DNA of 63,222 nucleotides, filler included, from Stramenopiles sp. TOSAG23-6 (lineage: Eukaryota): the NCBI GenBank assembly GCA_900128565.1. It is 2 parts of 2 records of this genome, joined end to end, with 100 filler letters (N's around TTAATTAATTAA, not from the genome) between each part and the next. Parts side by side here need not be neighbours in the genome. Positions count along the whole stretch, not along the records: positions 1 to 31,740 come from LT635960.1; positions 31,841 to 63,222 come from LT635961.1. One strand, given 5' to 3'. The translations under genes were made by a program, and so were the position numbers. Below, piece by piece: positions 2,473 to 41,643 of the stretch (positions within the stretch are counted from its first letter, which is position 1; the number at the start of each line of letters is the position of its first letter). The notes beneath the pieces are model-generated. The model was not told the DNA's origin, did not search any database, and was given only the letters and a program-made list of their open reading frames with translations.

Positions 2473-3904
2473 ATGCAAAGAAGCAATAGTGATCCTACAT
2501 CATTCATTGATGATAAAAGTTCTTTCTGGGTAGAGTATACAAAGCGTAGAGTATCGTTGAATAAAGCGGATAAAGTTTCAAAAAAGAAAAGACAGACACG
2601 TGATGAAAAGCTTGCGTTACAAGTACGAGATATGCGCCGATGGCGTTATAAGACAACACACCAAGATACAAAGCTTGTAGATATACATGATGAATCAATG
2701 CAACCTACAGCAGATGAAAAATTAGTATGGACCTCAATTGAAACAATAAATGATCCAAGAGGATCTTCTATTCCAGAAGTAGAGATGTATCTTGAAAGAC
2801 AAAATCGTCGCTGTACAGATATCGCCTTGTGTTTAAAGTGTCTTCGTGATAAGTTGCTAGTTGCACAGTATGGATCAGTTGGTTCACAGAAATTTCCTAG
2901 CAGTATAAGAGTTCTAAATATATATGGTTCCCAGACCTGTGAATATGACTGGTCTGATCCATGTAATCCTGATGAAAAACCAAAAAGAGAATTAACAGAA
3001 ATTCGTTGGTGTTCCATGTGGATGCCAAATTGCCTCAATAGATTAAGAAATCTTCATATGATTAGCATAAAAAACACTACATTAAATACAATTCCTTCTT
3101 CTTGGATTGCTCTATCGCATGTTCTTGAAAGTCTTTGCTTGTGTAATAATAATATTTCCTATATTTCAACTGCTTTATCACAATGTACAAGACTCACTAC
3201 TTTATTATTAAATGGAAACAAAATTGAAAAATTGCCGCCTCTAAATAAATTACAGACGCTTCAAAAATTATGTTTAGGTCAAAATAAGCTTCGTCGGTTC
3301 CCAAGTGGTGTGAGTTCCCTTTTATATCTACATCAATTGATACTTACCAGTAATAGGATTGGTGGTATACCAAGTTCTATAAGTAATTTACAACAATTAC
3401 GAACTTTAGCAATTGGTGATAATTTATTAGAAACCTTACCAGATGCCATAGGGCAGCTTAAACATTTGACACATCTCAGTATCGATAGAAACAAGATACA
3501 AATATTACCCGAGTCAATGGGGAAACTTATTCATTTACGTTTGTTGGATGCTTCCTTTAATCAATTGAGTAATATTCATACATCTATTGATAAAAATACA
3601 GCACTATATGACATGTATGTTTTATTTTTTTTTCAATTTTTAATTTATGTTTTTCGTACGAAATTTTGTACCTAACGAATTAAAAAAATATATTTTTTCA
3701 CAATACATCAACTTGGCCATGAATTTTCTCATGGAACTGCCACGTGTAGTTTTACAAATGACACAATTAACAAAACTTAGTTTAGAAGGAAATCCTTTGA
3801 TGGAGCCAGGAGAGGGAAATGATTGGTTGATACCGCATAATACGCATTATTCAAAAAGTATAATGGCAGCTATAAAAATATCAAGAGATATTATGTTTAC
3901 TTAA
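2473..3904 (+). CDS. Leucine-rich repeat protein (typical 23-aa LRRs); exons 2473-3614 and 3709-3904
   Basis: LxxLxLxxNxLxxLP repeats. Joining ORF 2449..3675 to ORF 3647..3904 gives an intact repeat NTALYDINLAMNFLMELPRVVLQ. Confidence 0.85.
3615..3708 (+). mobile_element. Introner-family intron, GT-AT (94 nt), AT direct repeat
   Basis: GAC AT|GTATGTTTT...GTACGAAATTTTGTACCTAAC...TTTTCACAATACAT|C AAC. No AG occurs inside; removal restores the LRR register. Confidence 0.85.
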
Positions 3905-4099
3905 TTTATAAAATATCAAGATATATTATGTTTACATCAAACAGTTAAATATTTGTACCAAGTATACTTACACTATTAATGATAATACAAAGATGTAGTC
4001 TAGCAATTATAATGTCTATTTAAAAAACAAAATCCAAGATGTACTACACATTACACTATTAAGATATATAAACGTTTCCATAAATGAATAAAATGTAAG

Positions 4100-4207
4100 G
4101 AAAATGTTATATTTACTGAAAATGTTGTATTTAATTTTAATGTTATATTTACTGAAAATGTTGTATTTAATTTTAATATTGTATTTACTGAAAATGTTAT
4201 ATTTAAT
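4100..4207. repeat. AT-rich 36-bp minisatellite (~3 units), intergenic
   Basis: Repeated aatgttatatttactgaaaatgttgtatttaatttt. Confidence 0.8.
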
Positions 4208-4419
4208 TTCAAATTTGTATTTATTTTTAATGTCCAAGTAGATTGTCACACTTTAAAATAAATATAAACTTGTCTCGTATTGTTGCAAAACTATAACATC
4301 AGTAATACATGTTATTATCATTGAAAAATACAGTTCGAGTTGTATAATTTTTTATTATTTTGAAAAATACACTTACTTCAACTCAAACTCAAACCTACAG
4401 TATAACAATCATGGTTTCT

Positions 4420-6384
4420 CTACAAGTATGTATCATGTCTCGCATACATGGCAGATAAAGCAATTCCAAAACCTTGTAACACAGAAAGTGGATGTATTGT
4501 AAAAAAATATTAAAAAAAAAAAATTGTTAGGTGAAAAATTGTAGCACAAAAAGTGAATGTATTGTACAAAAATATTTTTTTAAAAAGTGTTAGGTACAAA
4601 ATTGTATACAAAAAAAATAATTCATGATGAAAACGTACATATGTAACATCACATGAGAAAACATTTTCTTGTAATTTCCCTGATAACAACCATTCCTTCT
4701 TTTCACCATCTTTAGAATCATACAGAATGAAATTTTTGACACTGCTCAATTTTGCTCTTCCTTTAAAATCCAAAGTATGACATTGACGTCGATTATCCCA
4801 TTCTGGTTCTTTATTAGGTAGAGATACTACTCTATTTTGTGAAAAAATATGTTTTTGTAGTAAAAAAAATGTTAGGTACAAAAATTTTAGAATTTGTACA
4901 AACAAAAAAAATAAATTCAAAATTGAAATTTTTAAATTTGAATGAAAACAAACCTGTTTTTTACCATTGAACGTCCACGACTTTCTTTCTCAAAAGTCTT
5001 TTGTAAACCTTCATCACTATTTGAAGGTCGAAATACAACAGGTTGTCCACCAGTATTAACCATGTATTGTTAAACAATATTTTTTTTCAATAAAAAATGA
5101 ATTTTCAACAAGAAAAAAAAAATTTTGAAATGAAATTGAAATAAATGATGAAAACATATAAATACTAAAAAAAAAAAAAAATGATAAATAAATGATAAAA
5201 ACGTACGTTGGTACTAAAGTATCCATAATTCGTGGATGTTTACTAGACACCGTATATTTTATAGATGCTAGTTCTTTTCGAGATTCCATTCGGCCTCGTG
5301 CTTTGCGAGGGGCGAGACCATTATCATATAATAAAAATTCAGTTTTTGTTAAATTGCCACGAACTTTACCAATAAATGACGGATCTTCACGTCCACCCTG
5401 AGGAGTCATTGAAATCATAACATTAACACCTTTTGAAAGAAATTTACTTCGATCTTTTGCAAACATGACAAACTTATTGCCTTTTTTTCGGTCGAGATAT
5501 AATGCATAAATATACTTATTATTGTCATCTAAACCACGTTTCAAAATGCACTTGACTGTCCCGAGTTCTCGTGGTACCGGATTTGTTAAAAAATTACGTA
5601 ATTGATGAGCTGTATCATAATTATATTTAGGCATGCGAGTTGCGAATGATTTGATGGTACGTATACCTGTTGGTTTTGGAGCAATTTCAACAAAACTTTT
5701 GGCTGTTTTCAAATTAGCAGAGTCATCGGAAGTAGCGTCAGAATCGCTAGTAGATGTGTCACTGCTGTCACTGCTTTCAGAGTCTGAAGAAGAACTAGAT
5801 ACATAGTTTCCAATCCCTTGCATGTCAACATTATTGTCTTGAGCTTCATTGAGTTTCTTTCGACGAAAAGATCGAGCGCAAGCATTTGCTACAGCTGTAG
5901 ATTGCTTTCTTTTCGTTGGAGTCACGCCTGAAGACTTTTCATTAAATAACCAATCTAAATCGTCACCAGTGAGATTATCCGGATTCGCAGCATTTACTTC
6001 AACGGCTGGAGGTACTGAAGCAAATGCATTATCAAACATATCATTGACTTCATTTGAATAATTTATAGATTTTGGCTGGTTAGCGGATACGTATCCTGGA
6101 CGGTTTCCAGAATAATTTTGACCCATTTGTGAGTGTCCATTCACTCCATATCCATTATTGTGGTATGGAGAGTGTTTTCCATCTGTATGAGGAGGAAGTT
6201 TTTGACCAGGCATGTAACGTTGTGGTTGTGCCTGTTGAAAATTACGGTTCTGGCGTAATCCAAAATTATTTTGAGAGGGAGGTGCAGAGGGACCCCCCAA
6301 CACATTACCAAAGGGGCTATTATCCTCATTTTGACCTTCCCAAGATAAATTGTCCCAAAAGGGATCATTTTGAAAATCTCCCAT
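4420..6384 (-). CDS. Tubby-like protein; exons 6384-5207, 5061-4954, 4831-4639, 4491-4420
   Basis: Tubby motifs after splicing: FIGKVRGNLTKTEFLLYDNG, RKELASIKY, NKEPEWDNRRQCHTLDFKGRAKLSSVKNF, FSCDVTYPLSVLQGFGIALS. Confidence 0.88.
4492..4638 (-). mobile_element. Introner-family intron, GT-AT (147 nt), with an internally duplicated 3' end
   Basis: TAT|GTACGTTTTCATC...TTTTGTACCTAAC...ACAATACAT|CCA restores the Tubby YPLS motif. The first downstream AG is out of frame. Confidence 0.85.
4832..4953 (-). mobile_element. Introner-family intron, GT-AG (122 nt), AG direct repeat
   Basis: AAC AG|GTTTGTTTTCATT...TTTTGTACCTAAC...TTTTCACAAAATAG|A GTA, giving NRVVSLPNKEP. Confidence 0.88.
5062..5206 (-). 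mobile_element. Introner-family intron, GT-AT (145 nt), divergent; flanks AC/AT
   Basis: CCA AC|GTACGTTTTTATC...TTTAACAATACAT|G GTT. The internal AG leads to a stop codon; there is no clear GTACCTAAC. Confidence 0.75.
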
Positions 6385-7039: not shown

Positions 7040-7082
7040 CTTGAAATAACTAGTTTTGAGATATTTTATTTGAATACAACGG

Positions 7083-7135
7083 TTGATACTGTTGGTCTGA
7101 AAGCGGATTTTATTATCTGTAGACAACAGTTGACG
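7083..7135 (+). promoter_or_regulatory. SECIS element (type II) in the SelW 3' UTR
   Basis: UGAU core, then a stem ACUGUUGGUCU/AGACAACAGU, unpaired AAA, a mini-stem GCGGAU/AUCUGU, and UGAC. Confidence 0.85.
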
Positions 7136-16017: not shown

Positions 16018-19000
16018 CTATAGTGGCAACTCTACTTTCGGTAAACAAAGTTTGGGTTTTTGCAAATCTTCAAAATGCTTACGAAAACATCGAATTGCTA
16101 ATTCGGCTGGAATGTTCAATTGTGATGCCAAACCTTTTATAATTTCATTTGAAGGCATCGTGGACGCCAAATTTGTCTTACTAACAATGAATTCAGGGCT
16201 TAGGTTTCGTGCACGCCGACGATGATATTTTGACTCTTTATAATATTTAGAAATATTTTCAGATTTGTTTTTTGATGTAAAACTTTTTCCATCAAGAGAA
16301 GAGTGAGTGCTGCGCGAAGGAGCTGACTTTATTCTTGTATTTCTTTTTAGCATTCGATGACTATGTGATGCAACTTTCTTTGCAATTTTTTCTAAATCTC
16401 TTGTGGATTTTTCTTGAAGAGAAATTGTTTGTGGCAATTTTCTATTTGGAACATCTAGTGTTGCTTCAGTCAAAAAAGGGTGTGATAAAAGTTCCTCTGC
16501 AGAAGGTCTCTCTTTCGGGTTTTTCTTTAAACATTTTGCACAAAAATCAACTAATTCAGGAGAGTATTTTTCGCTATCTAATTGTGGAACTTTTTTCTCC
16601 TTTATGATACTAGCAAGCTCCCAAAATCCACCTGATGCTGCTTCCAGAGGAAACTTCGCCTGCGCAAGAGTAAACACAGTTAACCCTAGAGACCAAATGT
16701 CAGCATCATAAGAATACGGTTTTCCTGCAAGTCGTTCGGGTGACATATATATTAATGTCCCCGTAAAAGTTACAGCATTTGAAAAATTCGTTTCATCAAA
16801 TTCTCTGGATATACCAAAATCTGCAATCTTAACTGCGCCTTTACTATTAATCAAAAGATTTGCTGGTTTTATATCCCGATGAATCTGACGAAGAGAATGA
16901 ATAAACTGAAGACCTTTGATTACACGTAAAGTGACGTTTGCTAATATTGGTTCGGAACAAGGTTTACCGGCACTTACAAAATCTTGGAGTGTTCCAGCAT
17001 CCATGTATTCCAAGACGATGGACATCGATTGGTTCTCAGCACTTGTAAAAGCACCATGAAATGTTACAATTTGTGGACATGGTGGTAAAGATGACCAGTC
17101 ACCTAAATCTATACTGTTTGCAAATAGAGAGCCTAGTTCACGTAATATTTGTTTCTTCTTTTCATAAGAGCTCATTCTTACTTTCTTAATAGCTACAATA
17201 TGCAGAGTAGGAACATGAACAGCCTTATAAACAACTCCACCAGCTCCACGACCTAACTCTTTGAGAACAATAAATTCAGCACGCATGCTTCTTTCATCTT
17301 TGCTATACTTGGAGTTTCTTTCATCTTGACTATATTTTTGACGTAGTAATGTTTTATCTCTTTGCTGAAAGTGGTTGAATTTTTGCTTCATTGTAACTTC
17401 ATTTTGATCTGTTTTCATTAGTTGGTCATGTTGAGACATTTGAGTATATTTTTTATTTTTCTGGTATTCTTCATTTTTCTTTACTGTTGAATTAGGGTTA
17501 TTTGTAATAGATATTCCTTGTTGGGTATCGTTTCTTTTCATTGAAGTGTTCATCAATAAATCATTATTTAATTCATTTTTTATACAAGTATTTAAACCAT
17601 TTTCATTATTTTTATGATTTTGTGAATTCAAGTAAATTTCATCATGTATAGAATTTGAAATATCTGGACAATACGGTCGACTTTTAGAATGAAAAAATGC
17701 CTCAGATGATGTCCAAACGTCATCTTCATGTATTGTATTAGAATCTATATTGGAATTTTGTTTACTATTGCTTATTAAATTCTTATATGATTTTTTTGGA
17801 TTTGGTCTCAGTGCTGTCGCTGCAACAGCAGCAACAGCAGCCGATGCGCTTTGAGAAGATTCATTTTTTTGATGTTCTAAATACTTGACAAAATCTGTTT
17901 CTAGATTACTATGAGATTTTTGTGTCTTTTCTTCAGACTCATACATTTTATGTATACTTGAGTTATTATCATACATGTCACCTATATTATTAATCTCTTC
18001 AGTACATTTACCAACTGTAGTTGTACATGCTCTATTTAACTTTGAATACCTAATATCACACTTGTTTAGTTTTTGATTGGATTTCTCATGAGAATTATGA
18101 GAAGTGTTAATCCCAATGGAGAAGTCTTCTGAACTATCAACATGTAAATTAGTATTTTGTTGTACACCATTCTTAGAAATACCATCAGATGTTTTTACAT
18201 TGGTAATATTTTTGTTTTGAGTGGAATTTATAAAATCGTTTTTTATAATGTTTTCTGAGAGTTTGACAAGTTGTTGAGGATTAGAAGTTAGACTGGTGCC
18301 ATGTAACACATTTGATTCAGAAATTGAATCCGTACTACATTTCGTACCAGAAGTCATACGAGATTTACACATTCTATTATTGGTGCCTGGTGTTCTAGCT
18401 ATACCAGATGGATTGATTTTCCATCCTTTCGCTAAAAATGTTCCACTTTCTGATAAATCTATTGATTTTCGATTACCCGCTCGTAGATTAACCCTAGCTA
18501 CGTCTTCATTAATTTTTGCAATATCAAGAGCAAAATTTCGTATTGGAAGTTTTGGTTTTTTTCCTACAGTGTGAAATTGTTTTCTTCGTATATTTTGATT
18601 CATTTTTGATTTTGTCGCATTTTCAACGCTATTCATAAGAGTATGCGAAGAAGAATGACAAGTAAATTCATCAATATCATTTGGTATGAAATTCGCTACT
18701 TTATCATTTTTGATATCAGAATGTCTCATCTCTTCATTTTTTTCTTTATTTACATTATTTTGGATTTCATTACTTTTTCTTAAAGGTGAAATTCCTGCGT
18801 CTATATTTTTTTCTTGATCACTTTGGAGTGACACAAATTCATTATAGTTAAGGTTCATGTCAATATTTTTTGAACCTTTTATATCTTTTTTATATAAGGT
18901 GCTATTTATATTTGTACTACTTTCAGTATTTAAAAATTGATATTTTGATTTCGATGATCTCTTTCCAGAACTAAGACTTGGTGAGGTTGAACGTGTAGGT

Positions 19001-20288
19001 GTCATTGTCAAAATATTTGCGTCTCTGGGCAGTGGGGTAGTATTTGGCAAATGCGACTTGGAAAATTCCGTACCTAACGAATTTCGTATTTGCTGAGTGT
19101 TGCTCCTCTTACTTTTCATCACTTTACAGTCTTTTCGGTTATCTGCAGTAGAGTTGACATTATTTTGTTGAATATCTTCAATTACATTAGTTGAAATATC
19201 ACATGGCTTATTTTCTTTCCTTCTTGGAGTTTGTGTATTAATTGTTAATGTATTGTGAAAAAATATTTTTTTAGTAAAAATATTCGTTAGCTACAGAATT
19301 TACTACAAAAAAAAATTGAAAATCATTATGAAAACGTACATGAAGTATGCTGACTCCTTCTCTGTGCTAGCGACATCTTCCCCTTGGAAGCTTGTGAAGT
19401 GGATGTCATAGCATATCTAGCTGCTGCAGCTACACGAGATCTTTTATTATAATTCTGTGAAAGTGTTGATGAAGAATTTGTAGATTGAGACTGTGGTAAC
19501 CCTAACCCTAATTGTTTCACTTGGCTCTTTTGGCTCTGACCTCTATCATCAATACTTTCTTTATCAACTTTATTACTACTGTTCTCCAAAAGCTTATTTT
19601 GATGCCTATTATTTTCTGAATTACTTGATGTTACATGAATAATTGCATCAGCAACAGTAGTTGCTGTCAAGTTAATTCCTACAGATGAAGAGTTACCACT
19701 CAATTTGATACCTGCTTCATCTTTCTCACTTTGAAGAATTCGTAGACGTACAACTTCACGTAATAATTTCCGCCGATGTAGACGAACATCGATTTCAAGT
19801 AAGCTGAGGTCGTCATCACTATTCATGAGTAATAACGCATTGCCATTAATTTGAAGTTGTCTAAATTTTTCTGAATAACGAGATAAATCTATCGAATGGA
19901 GCCACTGTATCACATCTTCGACACTCCACTGTTGAATATTTGGACCTTGTACATTTCCCTTATATTCCACAGATAAAGATACAGGTTGTTCTTCAACAGC
20001 TAGTGGTGAAATATCATATTTCTCGTTTGTTTGGAAATAGCCATCAACTGTGGAAGCTTGTGTACCTAGCGTAGCTTGGAGAGACATATCTAAAGACTCA
20101 ACTAAATCACTTTTATCCTTTTTCAGACCTCTGGCAGCTAAGAGTAACCGCAATTCTTTGATTTCATCAGGAGTAAGTGAAGCCAACTGCAGCTCACGCA
20201 TCAATTCTGTTTTCTCATTTTCCGAGGTTCCACTATCAGTATCAACCTCAAAACCCAAAGTATCTGAAGAATCCAACAAAGGATTCAT
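16018..20288 (-). CDS. SAM-domain + MAP2K (STE7-like) protein kinase; exons 20288-19340 and 19247-16018
   Basis: SAM: WSVEDVIQWLHSIDLSRYSEKFRQLQINGNALL. Kinase: LGRGAGGVVYK, HRDIKPANLL, DFG, TFTGTLIYMSPERL. The two parts join in frame through the family intron. Confidence 0.8.
19248..19339 (-). mobile_element. Introner-family intron, GT-AT (92 nt), AT direct repeat
   Basis: TCA T|GTACGTTTTCAT...TTCTGTAGCTAAC...TTTTCACAATACAT|TA ACA. The internal AGs give stop codons. Confidence 0.8.
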
Positions 20289-20695
20289 TTTTTAAAAAGC
20301 TATTTTTGGTGTTTGTTACTGCTGCAATCTAACATTCAAATCGTATCTTCAACACACGTACCCAGCTACTTTGCAGTAGGATGAAATTACTCGTTTAGAA
20401 TATGGAATCCCCTTCTCTTCACTTCTAAACAGTTCTGATTTGAAAAATATTTCAAATATTTGAATGAATAAAAATCGAGCTAGAGTTTCGAATCGAAAGA
20501 CATGATGACGACGACGATTTCCTTTTTTTTTCATTTTGAATTTTCGTGAAGAACCGAACCCTAACCCTAACAAAAGATCTTGAATTTGTAACGGTAATTA
20601 ATTAGTAGCAAAAAATTAGCTAATGACCTTGATAAGTTTCAAAGAAGCTTGTGTAAGATTTTAGGAAAAGTATAATTGCCACATTCGCTTTCAGA

Positions 20696-21517: not shown

Positions 21518-21786
21518 TTTTTTGTTCAATAAATATTGTAAAAAATACAATTTTTTTTAGTTTTACAACATGCTCTTCGTTTTTGTGAGTTATATACAGA
21601 GTTACAGATTATGTTAGGGTTAGGGTTTGCTTTTTTCAAGATGACTCTAGCGCTAGTCAGAATAATGTTCTTTTTCACAATATAAATTGGAGATTCTTCA
21701 CTTCACTTCCTTGAACTTGAATAAATAAACCTGTTGTATAAAGTTGATACAAAGAGAGGACGCGGTCTTTGATATTACAGTAATCA

Positions 21787-23161
21787 ATGGTGTATCCTTT
21801 ATATGGGCGTGAACTTTCATCCGTTGTAATTGAACTCGGAAGTGCGTATCTAAAATGTGGTTTCTCTGGAGATTCTGCTCCAAGTCATATAATTCCATGT
21901 CCGGAAATGCACCAACTATTATTGCAGTGGCCTCCACCTTCACCCAGTGAATGGCAAACATATATCAGTGATTTATTATCAAATGTATTTTTTACCAAGT
22001 TACTAGCTAAACCGACAAAAAGAAGCGTTATAATTTGTGAAACATATTTTACCCCAACAATTGTACAAAAAGCTGTTGCTTTTGCGTTATTTGATCATCT
22101 CCGGGTACCAAAAGTTCGATTTATAAAGACAAGTTTGGCTGCACTCTACACGACTGGTAATTTGACTGGAATTGTAATAGACTGTGGTTATTCTGAAAGT
22201 CGCATTGTTGCAGTTTATTCAGGTAAGTTAATACCCGGTGCTCAACGTGTTGTAAAGACTGGTACTTTGGCCGTTCATGAGAAACTAAAAACTGCTTTAT
22301 TTCCAAATGATTCCATTGAATTAGCATCTACTGAGTGTATTTCTCACTCAACTACTAATATGTCATTTTCTGGGATATTGGAAGATATAGCACCCCGATG
22401 TTGTTATGTATCACCCGAAGAAGACAAAAATCAAAATGAAGATTCTGAAGATGGGCCTGATATAAAATACAGTTTACCTATGAATTTTTCTACTTTAGTC
22501 AAAAATGATATTAAAAGTGAAAATAATAGAATTAATATTGAAACAAATAATGCCACTTGTGATAATAGTTGTAGTATTCATATTCCGTATAAAGTGTATA
22601 CAAAAGTCACTGATACATTATTTTATAGTAATGAAAACAACGAATACTCTTTCGCTGAAACATTTTTAGATATTTTGTACGTTTTTATCATTAATTTCAA
22701 TTTTGTTTCATACGAAATTTTGTACCTAACGAAATTTTTTTTCAAAAAAAAAAAAATATTTTTCACAATACTTACGTGCCTGTCCAAACGACCTCCGAAG
22801 AGTTATTGTACAAAATGTTGTAGTTATTGGTGGGACTGCATCATATGATGGTTTTAATGAGAGATTAAAGAATTCAATATTAAACTATGCAAAAAAGTTG
22901 GAAGATTTAGGAGAAAAAACATATAAAAATAGTTTTTATTTTTCATCTTTGAAAGTTATGAAAAATTACCTTAAAATAACACCTCAGATATTTTCACCTA
23001 ATATTACAGCATGGGTTGGTTGTTCATTAATGGGAATTAATGTATCAGTACCAGAATCAAAAATTGATGTATATGATGAATTTTGTGATGATGAATCAAA
23101 TTTTATGACAATTTCAGACTTTTATTCACAAGGAATTCAAGATGAATTTCAAATTGAGTAG
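21787..23161 (+). CDS. ACTR10: Actin-related protein (Arp10/Arp11 dynactin-like); exons 21787-22676 and 22774-23161
   Basis: VVIELGSAYLKCGFSGDSAP, GIVIDCGYSESR; after splicing, FLDILRACPNDLRRVIVQNVVVIGGTAS and AWVGCSL. Confidence 0.8.
22677..22773 (+). mobile_element. Introner-family intron, GT-TT (97 nt), TT direct repeat
   Basis: ATT TT|GTACGTTTTTATC...TTTTGTACCTAAC...TTTTCACAATACTT|A CGT GCC TGT CCA. No AG occurs inside. Confidence 0.82.
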
Positions 23162-26843: not shown

Positions 26844-29800
26844 TTAAATATATTCGAAATATGCAGTTGGTATAACACCGATTTCATCAGTTCCATCAGT
26901 CGTCATTACCTGACTCCAACCATCTTCAAATTCTTCCAAAACTTTAATCATAGAATTTTGTTTCACATGTAATTGTTCATCATCATCATCCTCCTCTTGA
27001 GGTTCAAAATCAAATGACATTTTAGCATCCCTTGCAGTTTTAATTAATTCATCTAAATCAGTTTCTGAAGTAATATCAGGATTGACTGATTCATTTGAAG
27101 TAGAATTACCGACAGACTCACTTATTGAAGGTCTTTGGTTGGAAACTTCCATAGATGTCTTTTCTATATCAACGACTTTTGTAGTGCTATCTACAGTTTT
27201 GTTATTGGTATCGGATGAAACAGCTACAGCAGCAGCTTCAGCAGCAGCCTGGATCAAAGCACGCTCATACAAAATTTCAGCATCTTCGTCGGAATCTTGA
27301 TTGACAGTATCATTTTTAGAAAGATTTTGTTTTACATCTTCGTCGGAATCTTCATTGTCAGTATCATTTTTAGAAAGATCTTGTTTTACATCTTCGTTGT
27401 CAACATTGGATACTTCTTCCTTCACATCTGGTATAATCTTTTTTTCAATAGCTTTACTTTCTGGTACCTCGATTACATCAGCATTCGCTAAAGAATTTGC
27501 TGTATACAATCCACAACCATATAATGATGCAGTTATTTTAGGTTTGACTAGTTTTGCTGTTGGTGTTTTTTCAGTATCTTTAATCTTAGAATCATGTATA
27601 GGTGTCTTATCATTCGTATCTGGAGATGTACGCAAGATTGGAGCAGTAGTGAGAGAAGGTGGTCTTTTATTAGGACTAAGCCCTAACCCTCCAACACGAG
27701 ATTTTACTCTTGGAGCATCAATAGAACCTCGTCTTTTCTGTACACGTAAACGAACAGCAACAGGAGCAGAGTTATCTTCTTTAGCTTCGTCTTTTTCTGC
27801 CACTACTGGAAGACTCATTGTATCACATACTGTTTCATTTGCTTGATATGACATATTTTGAGATTTTTTACGAAATTGTTCAATTCTTCTTGTTCTTGAT
27901 GCAATCTTTTCTTTAGCTTCATGAAGATTGTCTGGATCAATTAACTTCAAAGCCTCTGCAACAATTGCAACAGGAATTGAAATTGACGCATTCGAATCTC
28001 TTGCAAGTCGTTTTCGATCAGTATCACGTGAACCTGCTTCAATGTATGCCCATGTTCCATGTATTTTGTAGAAATATTTCAAAAAAAAAACCTAAAATTT
28101 GTTAGGTACAAAATGTTTTGAAAAAAATAAATTCGAAATTGAAAAAAAGAATGAAAACATACATCTACACGAGATGTTTCTTCAAATCGAGCAGCTTCAA
28201 CGGCAGCATTAACACTTGCGGCAGGTTTCATTATAGCATCAATATCACCTGCACCAGCTGAAACACGCACACGAGTACATTCAGATAATAGTGCTGCTGC
28301 TGCTTGTTGAGCCTTTTCTGACGATTGACATGACTTATCAAACAACAAACCACCTGCAGTTCGGAGTAAAGGTTCAAAATATTGACTCCATGTTTCTTCT
28401 TCTTCAACATCTTCATCATTCGAAATTTGAGATNTTTTATTTTCATATGAATTCCTGGCCATCGACAATAAAGCAGATATAATTGTAAAACCACTTGAAG
28501 CATATGTTTCATTACTGATTGTTTCAAGTAATACCATTGCACACATTTTTGCAAGAATAGGAGTTTTTGTGAAATATTCTTGACATACTACATATGCGAT
28601 ACGTTCTAGAAATAATTGAGATGACTTTGTAGAATACTCGGAAACAGCCTCAATTAAATCGGGATGAGCATTTACACGTTTCAATGCATCTAAAAGATGT
28701 TTAATAACTTCAGTAACTTCTCTAGAATCTCTCACAACGAGTGATGTATCTTTCTGATATCGCGAACACACTTGAGAAATCATTGCAGCATCAGCTTCTG
28801 CCTTTACCTTTTGCATATATAACCAAGGTAATAGTAGTAAAAGTGGTCTAAGAACGCGTTCTCCACCAGATGAGTCGAAAAAATCAACAACAACGCCTCC
28901 CCCAGTAAGACGGATAACAACAGATCTTGCAATTGCTGCAAGTTTTGCATCTTTATGGTGTACAACATGTGTTAATAATGTCAATAATCCAGTAAATGGA
29001 GGATCCCAAGCTAAAACACCTGGTGGTGGTGAAAGATTTGAGTCAACTTTTGATAACACAGAAGCAATTGGTGACATTTCTGATGTAACAGTATTCACAA
29101 TACGAAGTCCAGAATATAATAATTCAGGAAGATTTGATTTTAGCATTGCCAAGCCAGTCCACATTAATTGAAAACAAGTTTCAGATGTTGCTGTACATTT
29201 AGGAGAAATTGATGCCTTGGAAGTACTAGAAATAAACTTCACAAGTTCTTCAGATAATACAGCTAAAGTTTCAGCCATTTCAGCAGTTTGTGCAATCAAC
29301 TCGGCCGTTTTCGGTGATGTTGCTTTAACAGATGCACTTGATGAAAGACTCAACATTCGATCTGCTAAATGTCTACATAATGTCAATGCATCATTATGAT
29401 TCATTGTTAATCCTTTTCCTAATTTCTGCAATTGATCACAATGAAGTAAAGTTCGATAAATCCAATGCGCACGTGTAGATAAATTAGAATCCCTACAAGC
29501 AAGAGCATATTCTAGAGTTTCTTTTGTAAGTGATGCAATTAAATCATGACCCTTACCTGTCGCAAAATCAACACTTGTAATAAAAGCTAAAATGAAATTA
29601 CCTAACGAATTCGTGCATTTTGATTCGTACTCCCAATTAATTGTAAATGGTCGACCAGATAAGGATAAAGACAACATTGCAACGAGAGGATTCACTTGTC
29701 CCACTAAAGCATTGTATAATTCTTCAGAATTTTCAGATGTATTTTTTGCAAAACTTGGCAATGATAATAAAACATTACGTAAAAGACTCGGAATATGAGA

Positions 29801-31685
29801 TACACCTAACGCAATCATGACATCATCAGATTGTCGTGGAGTCAATGAAACTCGTTCAGGGCTATTTGTTGCAGGCATTAGTAGCATAGAATGCAATAAA
29901 AGCAAAGGTAATACAGAACACATTGGCTCAAGTAATGTAGTACTTAATTGATGGCATAACATTACTGCGGCAGTAGAGAGGCGTTTATCATGAATTGATT
30001 TTCCATGCATCTTAATTTTATAGACTAATACATCGAGAACATTTTTGGGATCTGACAGATACACAGATCTAGATATTTCTTCTAAATGTGTACCTCCTAA
30101 AACAGAATATAAATTTACTGTTCCAGGACAATGACTTGAAGTAACAGCATTTTTTGCACGCATTGCCACTTCGGTTGTAGCTACAAGAAAATCAACAATA
30201 ATACGAGTATTTCCAGGCACAGTCGTTAAAGCTTGCCACATATTCAATGCAGCACTTAAATTATGTGTTGGCAAATTTCTTGTAATTTTGAATAATTCAA
30301 CTAAAGTTCGTTCAGCGTGAATGAAATCATATTTTGGATGTTCTGTACTAGACGAGGAAGACGTTTTTGGCAATAAGCTAATGTAATTACAAAATGGTAC
30401 GGCAATCGATGCTGTCCAAAGTAAACCACCACCCCATTCTTCTCTTTCTGCACGACATTTTCTACCATTTCGTATTACTCGACATGTGGACGATTCCAAG
30501 AGACATGTCATAAACTCACTTGTAAAACCTGCACTTTGTAAAGTATTTGCTAATTTAGATGTTATTTGATCAGCATATACTTTCAATGTCGCACTCGTTT
30601 CTTTTTCTAATTCAACCTCAATATCATCACACCATTCCAAAAAATCAATTAGAAGTTGTTTATTTCTCTTTGTAGCAGCACCGTATGATATATTATTATC
30701 TGTTGGTATTGATTGAGATAAAGATTGTTTGCCTTTAGGATCAAGACCATAACGTAAAAGACCATCAGCTACTGCAGCACCATCTTCCGCTGTACCTACT
30801 AACGACGCCATTTGTAAATCAACAATCCATTCATTACGGATTTGACTTGTTTCAGCTTTAAATATGTATTCTTTCTTTGTTTCTTTTAAACCCATTAGAG
30901 TAAAACTTGTACCACTTGCACCGTCATCCGGTCGAACATGACAACCACGAAGTAGCAATGTACCTTGAGGTGCTACATTTGTCTTATTTTTATAATACAA
31001 CAAAGTATCTCCACGTAGGACTACCCACCGTGTCTGCCAACGACGACCTCCTATACCTCCCATTTTTTTCAAGATTCCAGTACGTGAACTATGATCCACA
31101 GATTTTCTTCTTTCTGTGCGTACACTCATTCGATGATTCATTACACTAGATTGTTTAGTATCTTTGTTATTCACTGTAGTAGGATGAACAACAGATACAC
31201 GAGGTGATGTCATTGATTGACAAGGTATCAAAGCTTCTACTAAACTCATCCGTATAGCAGAAAAAGCACGACGCCGAATTGATCGATTTGGGTCTCGTAC
31301 TGCACGAATACTCAATAGAAGCATAGACATACAATCTCCTGGATTTGGAAATGGTGAAGCAGGAAGTAATTTACGTTCAATAAATTGAGATACATTATTT
31401 CTTGCAGCTCTTGCAACATCACAGTTGCGAGACCAGGTAGCTAACCTACGAAGAAATGCTTCATTTTCACGAGATATTCCTGACATTGGCACATCTTCCA
31501 AAGGCTCGGAAGCATCGGGTGGTAATAATTGATCAAATAAAGCATGCATAAAATACATTGCACCTTTTCTCGGTTGACACATCACTTCTGTATGCGCAAT
31601 GGAATAAAACTCCTCAGGATGATATGCAATAAGTGAACGTAAACAACGATGACCCCATTTTTCACCTTCAGTAAACCAACCAAGA
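26844..31685 (-). CDS. Furry/MOR2-PAG1-like protein with an inserted PH domain and a C-terminal SH3; 5' truncated; intron at ~28059-28162
   Basis: Furry-like motifs ALACRDSNLSTRAHWIYRTL and FQLMWTGLAMLKS; PH domain GILKKMGG..RRWQTRWVVL..EWIVDL; SH3 FDFEPQ..QLHVKQ..DGWSQV..GVIPTAYF. The frame is open up to the chimera. Confidence 0.75.
28059..28162 (-). mobile_element. Introner-family intron (104 nt, GT-AT; an in-frame AG alternative ends at 28092)
   Basis: GAT|GTATGTTTTCATT...TTTTGTACCTAAC...TACAAAATACAT|GGA. Confidence 0.75.
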
Positions 31686-31740
31686 GCTGAAATTTTGTAT
31701 GAGCGTGCTTTGATCCAGGCTGCTGCTGAAGCTGCTGCTG
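31686..31740 (+). other. Inverted chimeric copy of 27227-27281 at the contig end (likely amplification/assembly artefact)
   Basis: 55-nt exact reverse complement of 27227-27281. Confidence 0.85.
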
Positions 31741-31840
31741 NNNNNNNNNNNNNNNNNNNNNNNNNNNNNNNNNNNNNNNNNNNNTTAATTAATTAANNNN
31801 NNNNNNNNNNNNNNNNNNNNNNNNNNNNNNNNNNNNNNNN
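31741..31840. other. Artificial contig linker (Ns with TTAATTAATTAA)
   Basis: N-run with a central stop-in-all-frames spacer at 31785-31796. Confidence 0.95.
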
Positions 31841-31907
31841 TTTCGTACGAAATTTTGTACCTAACAAATTTTAGTTTTTTTTTTTGAAATATTTTTTCAT
31901 AATCTAT
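31841..31907 (+). mobile_element. 3' half of another introner-family intron, followed by a probable terminal exon (ISAFEEKGFVYN*, to 31947)
   Basis: TTTCGTACGAAATTTTGTACCTAAC...ATATTTTTTCATAATCTAT. The 5' part is lost in the gap, so the exact acceptor is uncertain. Confidence 0.6.
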
Positions 31908-37655: not shown

Positions 37656-37699
37656 AATTGAAACATACTACATTTTATTTTCATAATTATGCAAGTTTC

Positions 37700-38275: not shown

Positions 38276-39553
38276 ATGTTTTTCTCACAGATTGGCGAAG
38301 ATGCAGACAAATTGCTGGAGTTATTTTATCCAACAACAAGCATTGGAGTTGCTTTGTACGATAGTACAGGACAATTTACAGTTACCGCTCAAAAGGCTTT
38401 ACAAAAAATTATTTTTCCTGAAAAATGGCGTGAACTCTCAGATGCCGATGGTAACAAATATTACGAAGATTGTGCAACAGGAATAACAACATGGACAAAG
38501 CCTTTATGTGATGAACATGACGAAAACATCTCCAACCCCGATACAATATGTCTTACATTCCAGCCTATAGACAGTTCTTTTGGTTTTTCTCTTTCAGGAG
38601 AATTTCCTACAAAACCTTTGAGTTTTTGTACTTGGGGAGAATATTGTGGTTTTCCTGGCACTTTTACGGGTAACCTTACATGGCAGCCAAAGAAAGCAAC
38701 TTGTCTGGAAATGTATTACGCTGGAATTCAAGTAGAAAGTCCTTTTGTAACATCTATTGTAGAAAGAATACAATATCTTGCGAATAAAGTAGCTGATAAT
38801 CAGTCTAGTCTTATGATATCTCCAGCCACAACACTTGTAGTAAATCAAAGAAATAATCCTTCCAATAATGTAGATATAAACATATGCCATGCATTAACTT
38901 TAACTATGTCTGATAATTGGATACGTGATGTTTCCTGTGGAGTATCCTTCAAAAACAAAGTGTATTTTTCTTCTATTGATGAGAATAGTTATGGTAGTAA
39001 TAGTGAGAATTTTTTTGTAACAAACTCGTCTTCCGAAATGAATCAATATCGACCATTCGCAGAGTGTTCCATGGGTACTCAACTAAGAACCAATTTAGAT
39101 ACAGTAGTTAGCATGAACGCAACATTAAATGTCAAGGATTCAGTAAATTCAAGTAATGATTTCGTAGTTGAGAAACTTAGTGTAAGAACTTCGGTATTCG
39201 CTTCACCTTGTAAGGGATTTGTCATAGCAGCTGCTTGGGATATTGATAAAAAATCATCTATAATAGCATCACTTCCTTTGTCAAATATTAGTATAGCTGC
39301 AAAATGTTCTATTGATGAAATTACTAATGCTTACTATAATAATGATGATAATACAAATAGTAGTAATAATACAAATAGTAGTGATAATACTTCGAACCCG
39401 GTTGTTTCACTTGTTGCAAATATCACAGGAGAAATTGGTATGCGCTTTTCTGGATCAATACCATCATTGCCTCTACATGCTGAAGTTGTTGTACGGTCGA
39501 ATATTTTACAATCTGGAAGTCCTAATTTCGGAGTGAGTCTCACGACTGGATGA
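38276..39553 (+). CDS. WW-domain protein, possibly a divergent VDAC/porin-like beta-barrel
   Basis: WW domain WRELSDADGNKYYEDCATGITTWTKP. The N-terminus FFSQIGEDADKLLELFYP and C-terminus NFGVSLTTG resemble VDAC ends. Confidence 0.6.
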   Translation: MFFSQIGEDADKLLELFYPTTSIGVALYDSTGQFTVTAQKALQKIIFPEKWRELSDADGNKYYEDCATGITTWTKPLCDEHDENISNPDTICLTFQPIDSSFGFSLSGEFPTKPLSFCTWGEYCGFPGTFTGNLTWQPKKATCLEMYYAGIQVESPFVTSIVERIQYLANKVADNQSSLMISPATTLVVNQRNNPSNNVDINICHALTLTMSDNWIRDVSCGVSFKNKVYFSSIDENSYGSNSENFFVTNSSSEMNQYRPFAECSMGTQLRTNLDTVVSMNATLNVKDSVNSSNDFVVEKLSVRTSVFASPCKGFVIAAAWDIDKKSSIIASLPLSNISIAAKCSIDEITNAYYNNDDNTNSSNNTNSSDNTSNPVVSLVANITGEIGMRFSGSIPSLPLHAEVVVRSNILQSGSPNFGVSLTTG

Positions 39554-39820
39554 ACTAAAATGAATATAGGACTAGTACCGGGTACTGTCGGCTGTGCTGT
39601 AAAATTCAATGTTTCAGATTTTCGAGATTTTCGAGATTATGACACGACACTGTGGCCAAACATTTGTGTCAAGAAAGACGCACTGATTATTGATTGATAA
39701 TTCAAAAGTTGTCACTCCATTGTGAAGAAAGCTAAATTACTCCCACTGCTTCAGAAAATATCCCTGCAAAGGAACTAGAGATTGTGAAAAAGGCCATCCC
39801 TTAACTCTCGATAATTGAAA

Positions 39821-41643
39821 ATGAGCATGTCTTCTCGCCAGCGCCACTCTAAGGTACGATATTGTTTTGCTGACACAAAGCATTCTGATGTGTATACTGG
39901 CCTTCCTGCAACTCGTGGGGTAGGTGATCATCAAATGATGAAAGCCAACTCTAAATTTTTTGCTTATGGATTTGATGCACCAGGTGGGCCCCTCCTGGTG
40001 TGGCCGCATGAAAAAAAAGGCAAATTTTCTCGTCAACAGATATTCCTTGGCCATGGTCATTCCGATTCAATTATGGATATCGACTTTTCTCCTTTCAATG
40101 ATAACTTATTGGCCACAGGTTCTAGAGATGGTACCATCAAACTCTGGCAACTTCCGGATAGTGGAACATCTGAAAAAAACATCAAACCCATAACTTCTCT
40201 TGATCAACATTCTAAACGTGTTTTATTTACTAAGTTTCACCCAACCGCCGAGAATGTTTTTGCAACAGCAGGTTCAACACCTTCAAATGAGTTGTTCATT
40301 TGGGACATTTCGCGTGGTGAGCCAACCCTAACATTTGACTTAGAGTTACACTCTTCACAAATAGAAGATTTGAAGTGGAACGAAAATGGGTCTTTACTTT
40401 GTACCTCTGATAAGTCTTGTATAGTACGCATGTTCGATCCCCGTGCCCTTGCTGTGGGTAGTGAACCAGTCGTTTCTTTCAAGCCACATCAAGGACATCG
40501 TCCTATCAAGGTCTCTTTCATTCCAAAATTTGATCGCTTCATAACTTGTGGGTTTACTAAGTCTAGTAAACGTGAGATGAAATTCTGGGATCCACGAAAT
40601 CTTGATAAACCTATTCAAAAAATTGCTATGGGACAGTCACCAGCTGTTTTGTATCCTTTCTTTGATCAAGGTACAAATATTCTGTACGTATGTGGTAAAG
40701 GTGAAAACGCCGTGCATCTCTATGAGGTAGTAAGTGGAACTGAAAATATTGTTCACTTGTCCAATGTGAATGGAATCGAATCATCGAAAGGATGGTGTAT
40801 ATATGTTTTCATCATGAATTTCAATTTTTGTTTTCGTACCAAATTTTGTACCTAACAAATTTCATTTTGTTTTTTTCACAATACATGATGCCGAAACGAT
40901 CTTGTGATGTCATGAAACATGAAGTAGCGAGATGTTTAAAACTAACACGTAATGGTGTTGAATCTATGCGCTTCAGAATTCCTCGTAAATCTCGTGATTT
41001 CCAGGAAGATCTCTTCCCTGATGCACCTTTCCCATTAAATCCTATGTCAGCTGATGATTATTTTTCTGGTAAAAATAAGGATCAAGAACTTAGTTCTTTA
41101 GATCCTAAACAGCGTACGGATGCATCAGGTGGATCAGTCTTTGTTGCAGCTAAAACATCTACAGAATTATCTGTCGAGTTGGCTGCTGCAAATGCAAAGA
41201 TAGTCAAATTGGAAAAAATGAAACTTGAACTTCTTGCTAAATTGAAAGCAAAAGGAATTACACCTTTAAAAATTACTCCTCCGCCAGCTCCTGTGATTAA
41301 AAAAACTGTTGTTGTTCCGCCAGCTCCTGTGTTTAAAAAAACTGTTGTTGAAAAAGTTGTCGCTCCAGTTGTTGTGAAGACAGCAGCAGCTACATCACCT
41401 CCAGTAGTTAAAAAGATTTCACCAGCAAAAGAAGTAAAACCTGTCAAAAAAATGCAGGTTGTCAAGAAGGCAGCATCGCCGAAGAAGGAAGTAAAACAAG
41501 AGAAAAAAATTAAAAAAAAGACTGTCATGAAAAAAGCAGACTATATGAAAGAAATATCGAATATGTGTAAAGATCTTGACCGAAGCGATGTTAAAAAAAT
41601 ACACGTCCTGGTGAAAGAGATCTGGGAAGCTGATGGTAACTAA
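39821..41643 (+). CDS. Coronin; exons 39821-40800 and 40887-41643
   Basis: SKVRYCF, GHSDSIMDIDFSPFNDNLLATGSRDG, LYPFFDQGTNILYVCGKGE; after splicing, KGWCMMPKR..HEVARCLKL..RIPRKSRDFQEDLFP; coiled-coil tail. Confidence 0.92.
40801..40886 (+). mobile_element. Introner-family intron, AT-AT (or AT-AC if shifted 2 nt), 86 nt
   Basis: TGT AT|ATATGTTTTCATC...TTTTGTACCTAAC...TTTTCACAATACAT|G ATG CCG AAA CGA. No AG occurs inside. Confidence 0.85.

What the first reader, a model, noticed from the sequence alone, without database searches (positions are those of the whole stretch)
3615..40886. Introner-like intron family with AG-independent acceptors that copy the upstream exon dinucleotide (GT-AT, GT-TT, AT-AT)
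Seen in sequence: eight related 86-147 nt inserts in six unrelated genes (3615-3708+, 4492-4638-, 4832-4953-, 5062-5206-, 19248-19339-, 22677-22773+, 28059-28162-, 40801-40886+) plus a partial at 31841. All lie in the host gene's sense orientation. They share a 5' RTAYGTTTT, usually TTTTGTACCTAAC with its A 31-44 nt before the end, and a 3' (C)AATAC. Each is bracketed by a dinucleotide: AT/AT in five, TT/TT, AG/AG and AC/AT. The frame is restored by removing the element plus one dinucleotide, which also recovers conserved motifs (LRR register, Tubby YPLS, actin-fold CPxDLR, coronin MPKR). Established knowledge: GTAYGT and CTAAC resemble U2-type donor and branch signals, and introners are transposons that create introns using their ends and target-site duplications, normally still ending in AG. 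Inference: a transposon with short GTAY/ATAC inverted ends and a 2-bp duplication is spliced with the duplication as the acceptor, whatever its sequence. This would mean 3' site choice is set by CAATAC+2 nt or by end-pairing, not by AG.
Basis: partly seen in the sequence, partly recalled or inferred. Interest (0 to 1): 0.95.

Follow-up and report, generated by a model that had tools for sequence, protein, structure and literature searches.

The report
Repeat-family introns that lack AG ends
Six genes of an uncultured marine protist are interrupted by copies of one short repeated element that look like introns with a normal start and branch site but mostly end in AT, not the near-universal AG; transposon-born odd introns of this kind are known from a few other plankton lineages.

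Summary
Eight related AT-rich inserts of 86-147 nt, plus a partial copy at a contig start, sit in sense orientation in six unrelated genes. Removing each insert together with its last dinucleotide restores the reading frame in 8 of 8. Relatives' proteins align across four junctions, three in tubby and one in coronin. An Arp10-like motif supports a fifth.

Seven of eight inserts start with GTAYGT or ATATGT. Seven carry CTAAC 31-44 nt from the end. Seven end in AATAC plus two bases, AT in six and TT in one. One is a normal GT-AG intron. One (28059) has an in-frame AG alternative.

The dinucleotide match is 7 of 8, and 1 of 56 arrangements does as well, so a target-site duplication is likely but not shown. 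Stable pairing between the intron ends is not supported.

A dynein gene is 90% identical to a record whose name I read as a MAST-3 stramenopile assembly, so this is not a tunicate.

RNA could not be examined, so splicing is inferred. The kind is already known (Fritillaria 3'AT introns, Amoebophrya, introners that co-opt their 3' site). My searches found no report of it for MAST-3.

The parts
3615..3708 (+). Family member in the LRR gene. 94 nt, phase 2, AT before the 5' end and AT as the last two bases. No AG between the branch motif and the end.
   Evidence: The first exon AG is at +41, which would shift the frame. The LRR 23-residue register continues across the junction (read).
4492..4638 (-). 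Composite member in tubby (147 nt, phase 0, AT/AT). The 3' half (branch motif + AATAC + AT) is present twice. Only the distal end restores the frame.
   Evidence: TRF finds a 65-nt unit x2.2 over 4474-4616 that includes 18 nt of the last exon. The last exon is 21 of 23 identical to P0001.
4832..4953 (-). Divergent member in tubby with canonical borders: GT...AG, AG/AG flanks, 122 nt, phase 2.
   Evidence: Leave-one-out E 1.4e-3. The junction aligns to P0001 without a gap.
5062..5206 (-). Composite, divergent member in tubby (145 nt, phase 2). AC before the 5' end and AT at the 3' end. It has a second, internal 5'-end copy beginning ATATG at 5159 and no CTAAC.
   Evidence: The profile hit is not significant (E 1.5). 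The junction fits P0001 apart from a 1-residue gap three residues downstream.
19248..19339 (-). Family member in the SAM + protein kinase gene (92 nt, phase 1, AT/AT). The branch variant is GTAGCTAAC.
   Evidence: The junction lies in a low-complexity stretch, so the support is from the frame only.
22677..22773 (+). Family member in the Arp10/11-like gene (97 nt, phase 2, TT/TT).
   Evidence: The downstream exon starts with the CPxDxR...IGGT stretch that aligns to Arp10 chains. The only canonical alternative, an AG at +27, would delete that stretch.
28059..28162 (-). Weaker family member in the PH...SH3 gene (104 nt, phase 0, AT/AT). A canonical alternative, 28092-28162 (GT...AG, with the AG 10 nt after the branch A), is also in frame and would add 11 codons.
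   Evidence: No homologue covers the junction.
40801..40886 (+). Family member in coronin (86 nt, phase 2). It begins ATATG and not GTAYG, with AT/AT flanks.
   Evidence: P0002 (72% identical) and 6 further coronins align across the junction without a gap.
31841..31907 (+). 3' two-thirds of a family member, cut by the start of a contig. It ends CTAT.
   Evidence: E 7e-8. The host gene lies off the contig.
31741..31840 (.). Contig joiner: two N runs around TTAATTAATTAA.
1949..1977 (+). Intergenic fragment resembling the element core (GTAC-N8-GTAC followed by CTAA).
   Evidence: E 2e-4 to 7e-5.
2323..2361 (-). Second core-like fragment in the same intergenic region, inverted relative to 1949-1977.
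2476..3901 (+). Host gene 1: LRR protein.
   Evidence: Pfam LRR_8, E 2e-20.
4400..6381 (-). Host gene 2: tubby-domain protein, four exons.
   Evidence: Pfam Tub. P0001 alignment.
16021..20291 (-). Host gene 3: SAM domain + protein kinase.
21784..23158 (+). Host gene 4: actin-related protein 10/11-like (dynactin).
26847..31738 (-). Host gene 5: PH domain ... SH3 protein. Its 5' end runs off the contig.
39815..41643 (+). Host gene 6: coronin.

Best explanation
These are spliceosomal (U2-type) introns, all descended from one short, AT-rich, non-coding repeated element: an introner-like family. The host is a compact, intron-poor marine stramenopile of the MAST-3 group.

The element supplies a strong donor (GTAYGT), a branch site (CTAAC) and a U-rich tract followed by AATAC. 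The last two intron bases repeat the two exon bases in front of the donor. This repeat is most simply the second copy of a 2-bp target-site duplication.

The intron is cut at the GT and two bases after AATAC. In most copies the acceptor dinucleotide is therefore AT (once TT) and not AG.

Shown here: the family relationship, the orientation, the exact length that must be removed, and the lack of a usable AG in most copies.

Inferred: that removal happens by splicing of RNA, the cut register (GT...AT rather than AT...AC), the branch point, and the transposon origin.
For: 1. One family. Conserved blocks run along the whole length. Pairwise identity is 0.69-0.87 among 3615, 4492, 19248, 22677, 40801 and the partial copy. 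Leave-one-out profile hits reach E <= 1e-9 for 4 of 6. Two copies outside the model score E 5e-9 and 7e-8. The pattern gives 5 hits against 0 in 100 shuffles.

2. Removal depends on RNA polarity. All 8 copies are in sense orientation (p 0.004). The donor consensus sits exactly at the 5' border in 7 of 8. CTAAC lies 31-44 nt from the 3' border in 7 of 8, followed by a T-rich tract.

3. Exact removal is required. Seven of 8 lengths are not multiples of 3, and the eighth (147 nt) has an in-frame stop (by eye). Removing the element with its last dinucleotide joins open frames in 8 of 8.

4. Homology across the junctions. The spliced tubby model aligns to P0001 over all three junctions, and the last exon is 21 of 23 identical. 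Coronin aligns to P0002 and 6 others without a gap. The Arp10 motif begins right after the 22677 junction.

5. AG is not used. Five copies have no AG between the branch motif and the end (5062 has no CTAAC at all). With the donor fixed, the first exon AG would shift the frame in 3615, 4492, 19248 and 40801. It would delete conserved residues in 5062 and 22677 (offsets).

6. Duplication. The upstream and terminal dinucleotides match in 7 of 8, and only 1 of 56 arrangements does as well. Upstream AT in 5 of 8 compares with a 0.097 background (p 4e-4).

7. Register. GTAYGT is an ideal U1/U6 site (established knowledge). 4832 is GT-AG in this register. At 5062 this register gives Thr where P0001 has Ala; the other register gives Met.
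Against: - No RNA evidence. The one read-laying run returned an error.
- Only eight copies from 63 kb could be studied. No whole genome is held, and the family was not found in the public collections scanned.
- The register cannot be fixed from DNA. AT...AC fits 5 of 8, and 40801 lacks the G at +1 in the GT register.
- 28059 may be an ordinary GT-AG intron.
- Inside 4492 a proximal AATAC+AT copy, 34 nt after the first branch motif, cannot be the productive site. The 3' choice is therefore not simply 'first AATAC + 2'.
- The duplication claim rests on two covarying cases plus an AT bias. Inverted ends are only 3-4 nt.
- 5062 is a weak family member.
Confidence: 0.7

Rival explanations
1. The introns are the same but the cut register lies 2 nt upstream. 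Each intron then runs from the duplicated dinucleotide to the C of AATAC. This gives AT-AC introns in five cases (plus TT-AC, AC-AC and AG-AT), spliced by the major spliceosome through the known compatibility of a first A with a last C.
For: The 2-nt repeat makes both registers give the same mRNA in 7 of 8. In this register the 3' end is the element's own invariant AC in 7 of 8. 40801, which lacks G at +1 in the GT register, becomes a regular AT-AC intron. That A...C termini are tolerated is established knowledge.
Against: The 5' sequence would then be AT followed by GTAYGT, which fits neither the U12-type nor the U2-type AT-AC donor consensus (recalled; no U12-like donor or near-terminal branch box in 0 of 8). 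4832 would become AG-AT although it is a perfect GT-AG intron. At 5062 this register predicts Met where the relative has Ala.
Confidence: 0.2
2. The family spreads without a transposase-made duplication, by reverse splicing or local duplication into preferred ...AT sites. The terminal AT then belongs to the element, and the match with the exon is target preference, as with the AG|GT proto-splice site.
For: Six of 8 ends are AT. No terminal inverted repeat of 6 nt or more and no transposase were seen. Two members grew by local tandem duplication. Introner families without TSD or TIR are described (Gozashti 2022, passages).
Against: The TT/TT and AG/AG cases covary (1 of 56). Core-like fragments lie in an intergenic region in both orientations, which suits DNA-level mobility.
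Confidence: 0.3
3. Ordinary GT-AG splicing uses nearby AGs, and the apparent non-AG ends are a misreading.
For: 28059 has an in-frame AG 10 nt after the branch A. 22677 and 5062 have in-frame exon AGs at +27 and +45.
Against: The first AG shifts the frame in 4 of 7 non-AG copies. In 22677 and 5062 it would delete residues conserved in Arp10 and in P0001.
Confidence: 0.05
4. The inserts are not removed from RNA. They are removed from DNA, like ciliate internal eliminated sequences, or they disrupt pseudogenes, or ribosomes bypass them.
For: Precise excision that leaves one copy of a flanking dinucleotide is also the hallmark of ciliate eliminated sequences (recalled; discussed in the Mesodinium preprint, passages).
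Against: The 8 of 8 sense orientation and the donor and branch signals are not expected for DNA excision. The flanks are AT, not TA. The host is a stramenopile. Exons on both sides stay open and conserved.
Confidence: 0.03

Closest known systems
[quoted passage not shown] 2022, Fig. 2C type, Chrysochromulina; dinoflagellate classes in Roy et al. 2020). Passages read.
   Same: A multi-copy short element in unrelated genes. The intron borders coincide with the element plus one copy of the duplication, so the mRNA length is unchanged. The element brings the donor (here also the branch site), and the far border falls in the duplicated bases.
   Different: Described families recruit an AG (or G-H/AG) from duplications of 3-9 bp. 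Here the repeat is 2 bp and is AT or TT in 7 of 8. Inverted ends are at most 3-4 nt. Those surveys start from annotated introns and list AG and AC as accepted 3' ends, so a family like this would probably be missed.
Non-canonical introns of the larvacean tunicates Fritillaria borealis and F. pellucida (Henriet 2019 is not held; read through the review, and Soo et al. 2026: abstract, section 21 and passages).
   Same: The introns are transposon-like. 3'AT is the commonest terminus (34% and 44% of introns). A YAY triplet lies before the 5' site and forms the last three intron bases; here CAT is the last triplet in 6 of 8 and YAY precedes the donor in 4 of 8. The U-rich tract is kept.
   Different: There the main classes start with AG, not GT. 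The 5' site is the unusual one, and duplicated U2AF subunits recognise the odd 3' ends. Here the donor and branch site match the classical strong consensus. The host is a stramenopile, and no sequence relation is expected.
Introner elements of Amoebophrya (Farhat et al. 2021; abstract and passages).
   Same: Repeated non-canonical introns with direct repeats that overlap the exon/intron borders.
   Different: Those have direct repeats of 3-5 nt and inverted repeats of 8-20 nt that form hairpins, no common terminal dinucleotides, and no detected U1. Here there is no hairpin between the ends and the donor is canonical.
AT-AC introns (U12-type and rare U2-type).
   Same: If the cuts lie 2 nt upstream, 5 of 8 are AT...AC.
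   Different: There is no U12-like donor box and no branch box close to the 3' end (0 of 8; consensus recalled). The branch motif is U2-like and lies 31-44 nt upstream.
Non-conventional introns of euglenids and hemistasiid diplonemids (review passages; abstract).
   Same: Non-GT-AG borders, often with short repeats at the junctions.
   Different: Those depend on extended pairing that brings the ends together. Here the pairing is 4-6 bp at best and no better than in shuffles.

Membership tests
Introner (repeated, transposon-derived spliceosomal intron family) | Many sequence-similar copies at unrelated intron positions | tested here: met
   Eight copies plus one partial in six genes.. 5062 belongs only by its ends.
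Introner (repeated, transposon-derived spliceosomal intron family) | Copies are removed from the transcript as introns | not testable with these tools
Removal is inferred from the frames (8 of 8) and from homologues.
Introner (repeated, transposon-derived spliceosomal intron family) | Target-site duplication that varies between insertion sites | tested here: inconclusive
   A 2-nt match in 7 of 8, with two informative covariations (TT, AG). 1 of 56 arrangements does as well.
Introner (repeated, transposon-derived spliceosomal intron family) | Terminal inverted repeats (6 nt or more in Gozashti's criteria) | tested here: not met
   Only GTA(T)/(A)TAC, 3-4 nt. Many described families also lack TIRs.
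Introner (repeated, transposon-derived spliceosomal intron family) | GY...AG borders | tested here: not met
   AG ends 1 of 8. One more has an in-frame AG alternative.
Introner (repeated, transposon-derived spliceosomal intron family) | Presence/absence differences between close relatives | not tested
   Only proteins of relatives were reachable (P0001, P0002). No genomic DNA of a relative was available.
Fritillaria-type non-canonical introns | YAY as the last three intron bases | tested here: met
   CAT in 6 of 8; CTT and TAG in the others. Criterion.
Fritillaria-type non-canonical introns | YAY immediately upstream of the 5' site | tested here: inconclusive
   4 of 8 (CAT, TAT, CAT, TAT). 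The others are CAG, AAC, TTT and GAT.
Fritillaria-type non-canonical introns | Main classes begin with AG; tunicate host with duplicated U2AF | tested here: not met
   0 of 8 begin with AG in the GT register. The host is a stramenopile by its dynein. U2AF could not be examined.
U12-type / AT-AC introns | AT...AC termini | tested here: inconclusive
   5 of 8 in the register shifted by 2 nt. The register cannot be told from DNA.
U12-type / AT-AC introns | Extended U12 donor box, and a branch box about 10-15 nt from the 3' end (consensus recalled) | tested here: not met
   0 of 8. The branch-like motif is CTAAC, 31-44 nt from the end.
Euglenid / diplonemid / Amoebophrya end-paired introns | Extended complementarity between the intron ends | tested here: not met
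   The best duplex is -3.8 kcal/mol, and 38 of 500 shuffles do as well. No MFE structure pairs the two ends and there is no consensus structure.
Ciliate internal eliminated sequences | TA-flanked DNA excision that is independent of orientation | tested here: not met
   Flanks are AT, TT, AG and AC. All 8 are in sense orientation. The host is a stramenopile. DNA against RNA was not testable.

The most novel reading that the evidence does not exclude
In this MAST-3 lineage nearly all introns may be copies of this one element; all nine interruptions seen in 63 kb are. The spliceosome may have moved its 3' rule from YAG to a site anchored on AAUAC with a terminal U. The first and last intron bases would then pair as G-U, or as A-U in 40801, in place of the classical G-G. 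That would be a free-living protist with canonical donor and branch recognition but a rewritten second-step acceptor rule.
Probability: 0.25. Interest if true: 0.85.

Novelty: new member of a known kind. Interest (0 to 1): 0.6.

Why it matters
The terminal AG is among the most constant signals in eukaryotic genes. Cases where it is dispensable are few: Fritillaria, Amoebophrya, euglenozoans.

A stramenopile family that keeps a textbook donor and branch site, and departs only at the acceptor, would isolate the question of how the second splicing step chooses its site.

It would also add an independent case to the link between introner invasions and relaxed splice-site rules.

There is a practical side. 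Standard gene finders and introner surveys assume AG (or AC) ends. They would break these genes into fragments or call them pseudogenes. That bears on the low gene counts and on the 'pseudogenised' genes reported for MAST-3 single-cell assemblies (Seeleuthner 2018, passages; the connection is my speculation).

Tried and rejected
- **RNA evidence.** The look-up of sequencing runs listed 14 runs, 11 on record as RNA, holding 0.05-0.28 of the words of 2500-12400. The single read-laying run returned an error and nothing was laid. These shares say nothing about splicing.
- **Whole genome.** None is held, so no genome-wide tally was possible.
- **Further copies elsewhere.** The metagenome scan with the element pattern gave 3 loci. 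All begin ATAYG and share nothing else with the family, so I take them as chance matches. The viral-contig scan gave 0.
- **Rfam.** 0 matches in the window, so no snRNA is available to inspect.
- **Transcript-derived proteins of the same species.** The tubby search gave 1 protein at 47% identity. The coronin search gave at best 72%. Only candidates of 'near' length were searched, so shorter fragments were not looked for.
- **A homologue across the 28059 junction.** The representatives search gave 2 hits, both limited to the SH3 end.
- **End pairing.** Not above shuffles. There is no consensus fold.
- **U12-type reading.** Rejected on the donor and branch boxes.
- **Tunicate origin.** I suspected this because of the likeness to Fritillaria. 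It is rejected by the dynein hit.
- **Translational bypass.** Rejected as far-fetched for 86-147 nt nuclear inserts that carry splice signals.
- **Literature.** Henriet 2019 is not held. Supplements are closed, so the family and species tables of Gozashti 2022 and 2025, which include Tara genomes, could not be checked for MAST entries.

Full report
**What is there**

The window is AT-rich, with GC of 0.29-0.41. It is gene-dense, with long uninterrupted frames under the standard code: 33 ORFs of at least 150 aa, one of 4231 aa.

The eight inserts named in the finding are at the stated places and strands. They are 86-147 nt long with GC of 0.14-0.22. They share these blocks:
- a 5' RTAYGTTTT in 7 of 8 (4832 has GTTTG);
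- a block after it that resembles CATCATGAATTTCAATTTT;
- a core with GTAC-N8-GTAC running into CTAAC. TTTTGTACCTAAC is exact in 6 of 8, 19248 has a variant and 5062 has none;
- a T-rich tract;
- AATAC followed by two bases, in 7 of 8.

A pattern made of three of these blocks hits 5 places, against none in 100 shuffles.

A profile built from six copies finds 4492 (E 5e-9) and the partial copy (E 7e-8), neither of which was in the model. With each copy left out in turn, 4 of 6 return at E <= 1e-9. 4832 and 28059 return only at 1e-3 to 1e-4. 5062 is not significant over its length (E 1.5) and belongs by its ends only.

The 'partial at 31841' is cut by a contig start. The N runs at 31741-31840 surround a TTAATTAATTAA joiner.

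**Host genes and exact excision**

The hosts are an LRR protein, a tubby-domain protein with three inserts, a SAM + kinase protein, an Arp10/11-like protein, a PH...SH3 protein and coronin.

All eight inserts lie in sense orientation (p 0.004). Removing each insert with its last dinucleotide joins two open frames in 8 of 8. Seven lengths are not multiples of three.

Homology pins the junctions:
- A tubby relative, P0001 (47% overall, far higher in the Tub domain), aligns to the in-silico spliced model over all three junctions. There is a single 1-residue gap three residues after the first junction, and the last exon is 21 of 23 identical.
- A coronin relative, P0002 (72%), and six more coronins align across the 40801 junction without a gap.
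- The exon after 22677 begins with the CPxDxR...IGGT stretch of Arp10.
- The LRR repeat keeps its register across 3615 (read).
- The 19248 and 28059 junctions lie in unconserved stretches, so the frame is the only evidence there. A library-wide search found no homologue covering 28059.

**Is AG really not used?**

Five copies have no AG between the branch motif and their end. 5062 has no CTAAC, and its only internal AG lies near its 5' end.

With the donor held fixed, the offsets give these outcomes for the first AG in the downstream exon:
- a frameshift in 3615, 4492, 19248 and 40801;
- an in-frame deletion of residues conserved in P0001 (5062) or in Arp10 (22677).

Two qualifications apply. 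4832 is a plain GT...AG intron. 28059 has an AG 10 nt after its branch A that would also keep the frame and add 11 codons, so it may be canonical. The firm count of non-AG ends is therefore five by homology, six by frame and seven at most.

Two bases are repeated at the borders, so the same mRNA results whether the cuts fall at GT...NN or two bases upstream at NN...AC. In the upstream register five copies are AT...AC, a pair of termini that spliceosomes are known to tolerate. 40801, which starts ATATG, stops being an exception.

I still favour the GT register, for three reasons:
- GTAYGT is an ideal donor;
- 4832 is GT-AG only in that register;
- at 5062, the one copy whose two dinucleotides differ (AC/AT), it gives Thr where the relative has Ala, while the other register gives Met.

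This last point is weak evidence. The 5062 codon in cDNA would settle the question.

**Duplication, inverted ends and end pairing**

The upstream and terminal dinucleotides match in 7 of 8. Keeping the compositions, 1 of 56 arrangements does as well. AT precedes the donor in 5 of 8 against a background of 0.097 (p 4e-4). A 2-bp target-site duplication is thus the simplest reading. It rests, however, on two covarying cases (TT and AG) plus an AT bias that could equally be target or splicing preference.

The inverted ends are 3-4 nt. Duplexes between the ends reach -3.8 kcal/mol at best, a value matched by 38 of 500 shuffles. Neither the single-sequence folds nor an alignment fold pair the ends. 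I therefore reject the end-pairing mechanism as unsupported.

A plain 'AATAC + 2' ruler also fails once. TRF shows that 4492 holds a 65-nt tandem duplication (x2.2, 78% matches, 4474-4616) that includes 18 nt of the last exon. This created a proximal branch motif and AATAC+AT that cannot be the productive site. Choice of branch site must matter. 5062 likewise carries a second, internal 5' end (ATATG) preceded by a stretch that resembles the exon end (by eye).

**Who the host is**

Residues 1700-2400 of the 4231-aa dynein-like protein are 90% identical to a EukProt record named GSMAST32. The next hits are stramenopiles at 35-39% (Chrysoparadoxa, Ectocarpus, Phytophthora).

I read that name as one of the MAST-3 single-cell assemblies of Seeleuthner et al. 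2018 (passages); this is an inference from the name. A 2026 preprint places several MAST-3 clades among small genomes that are about 80% exonic (passages), which fits the window.

I had suspected a tunicate because of the likeness to Fritillaria. The dynein result excludes that.

**Comparison with what is known**

- *Introners.* Introners that carry the donor and take the acceptor from the duplication are described (Gozashti 2022, passages; Roy 2020, passages). Those recruit AG.
- *Fritillaria.* In F. borealis and F. pellucida, 3'AT is the commonest terminus. YAY triplets mark both borders, and divergent U2AF paralogues bind the odd 3' ends (Soo 2026: abstract, section 21 and passages; review passages). 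Here CAT ends 6 of 8 copies and YAY precedes 4 of 8 donors, so the 3' side looks alike. There the 5' site is the odd one and the host is an animal.
- *Amoebophrya.* Its elements have longer direct and inverted repeats and no common termini.
- *Euglenids and hemistasiid diplonemids.* Their introns rely on end pairing.

The window therefore holds a further, independent instance of a known kind. Its distinctive combination is a classical strong donor and branch site with a non-AG acceptor.

I found no report of this for MAST-3 or Nanomonadea. The MAST papers I opened mention introns only in their methods or not at all (passages). 'MAST' and 'stramenopile' do not occur in the main text of the two introner surveys. 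Their supplementary tables, which cover Tara genomes, could not be read.

**Limits**

RNA was not seen. No genome is held. The family was not found in the metagenome or viral collections; the three pattern hits look like chance. Everything rests on nine copies in 63 kb.

I did not build full gene models. I saw no other interrupted frames among the ORFs, but short introns that leave the frame open could have escaped me.

**Verdict**

It is most likely an introner-like intron family with non-AG acceptors in a MAST-3 stramenopile (confidence 0.7). It is a new member of a known kind, with interest 0.6.

Noticed in passing
window 1949-1977 (+) and 2323-2361 (-): Two fragments resembling the element core (GTAC-N8-GTAC followed by CTAA) lie as an inverted pair about 350 bp apart, in the intergenic region upstream of the LRR gene. 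No ORF of note lies between them. GTAC-N8-GTAC occurs 6 times in the window, against 0-3 for each other spacing from 4 to 13. They could be relics of the element, the ends of a longer element, or a regulatory motif that the element carries.
   Followed up: partly
window 19060-19087 (+): A 14-nt exact match to the element core (GTACCTAAC plus 5 nt) lies antisense inside the coding exon of the kinase gene, 160 nt from the 19248 intron. Unexplained.
   Followed up: no
window 4474-4616: A 65-nt tandem duplication (x2.2) spans the 3' half of the 4492 intron plus 18 nt of the tubby last exon. It leaves a decoy branch site and acceptor inside the intron.
   Followed up: yes
window 5159-5206 (-): The 5062 intron holds a second 5'-end copy that starts ATATG, the same variant as the only donor of the coronin intron 40801. 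It is preceded by a stretch that resembles the exon end. This looks like a local duplication of the exon-intron border (by eye).
   Followed up: partly
window 31741-31840: Two N runs around TTAATTAATTAA form a contig joiner with stops in all frames. The window is therefore two contigs, and the PH...SH3 gene is cut at its 5' end.
   Followed up: yes
window 44834-57526 (-): An intact 4231-aa dynein-heavy-chain-like ORF without any intron, 90% identical to a MAST-3 record. Its relatives carry Kelch, filamin and TIG domains besides the motor (precomputed Pfam). Seeleuthner 2018 reported pseudogenised dynein genes in MAST-3A (passages). Unrecognised non-AG introns might mimic pseudogenes there; this was not tested.
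   Followed up: no
window 2-1240 (+): A Cys-rich, Ala/Thr/Ser-rich protein with an internal repeat of about 474 nt (two near-identical halves) and a hydrophobic C-terminus. It has no Pfam match and looks like a surface protein.
   Followed up: no
window 7554-12461 (+): One long ORF joins MLLE (PABC) domains, ankyrin repeats, MIF4G and MA3, with a 24-nt x5.9 repeat encoding Arg/Gly/Asp-rich units at 11683-11823. This is an unusual eIF4G/PAIP-like architecture.
   Followed up: no
window 4100-4231: An 18/36-nt tandem array lies in the spacer between the convergent LRR and tubby genes.
   Followed up: no
window 43488-43846: A 120-nt x3.1 coding repeat, with proline-rich units, lies in the EF-hand protein gene.
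   Followed up: no
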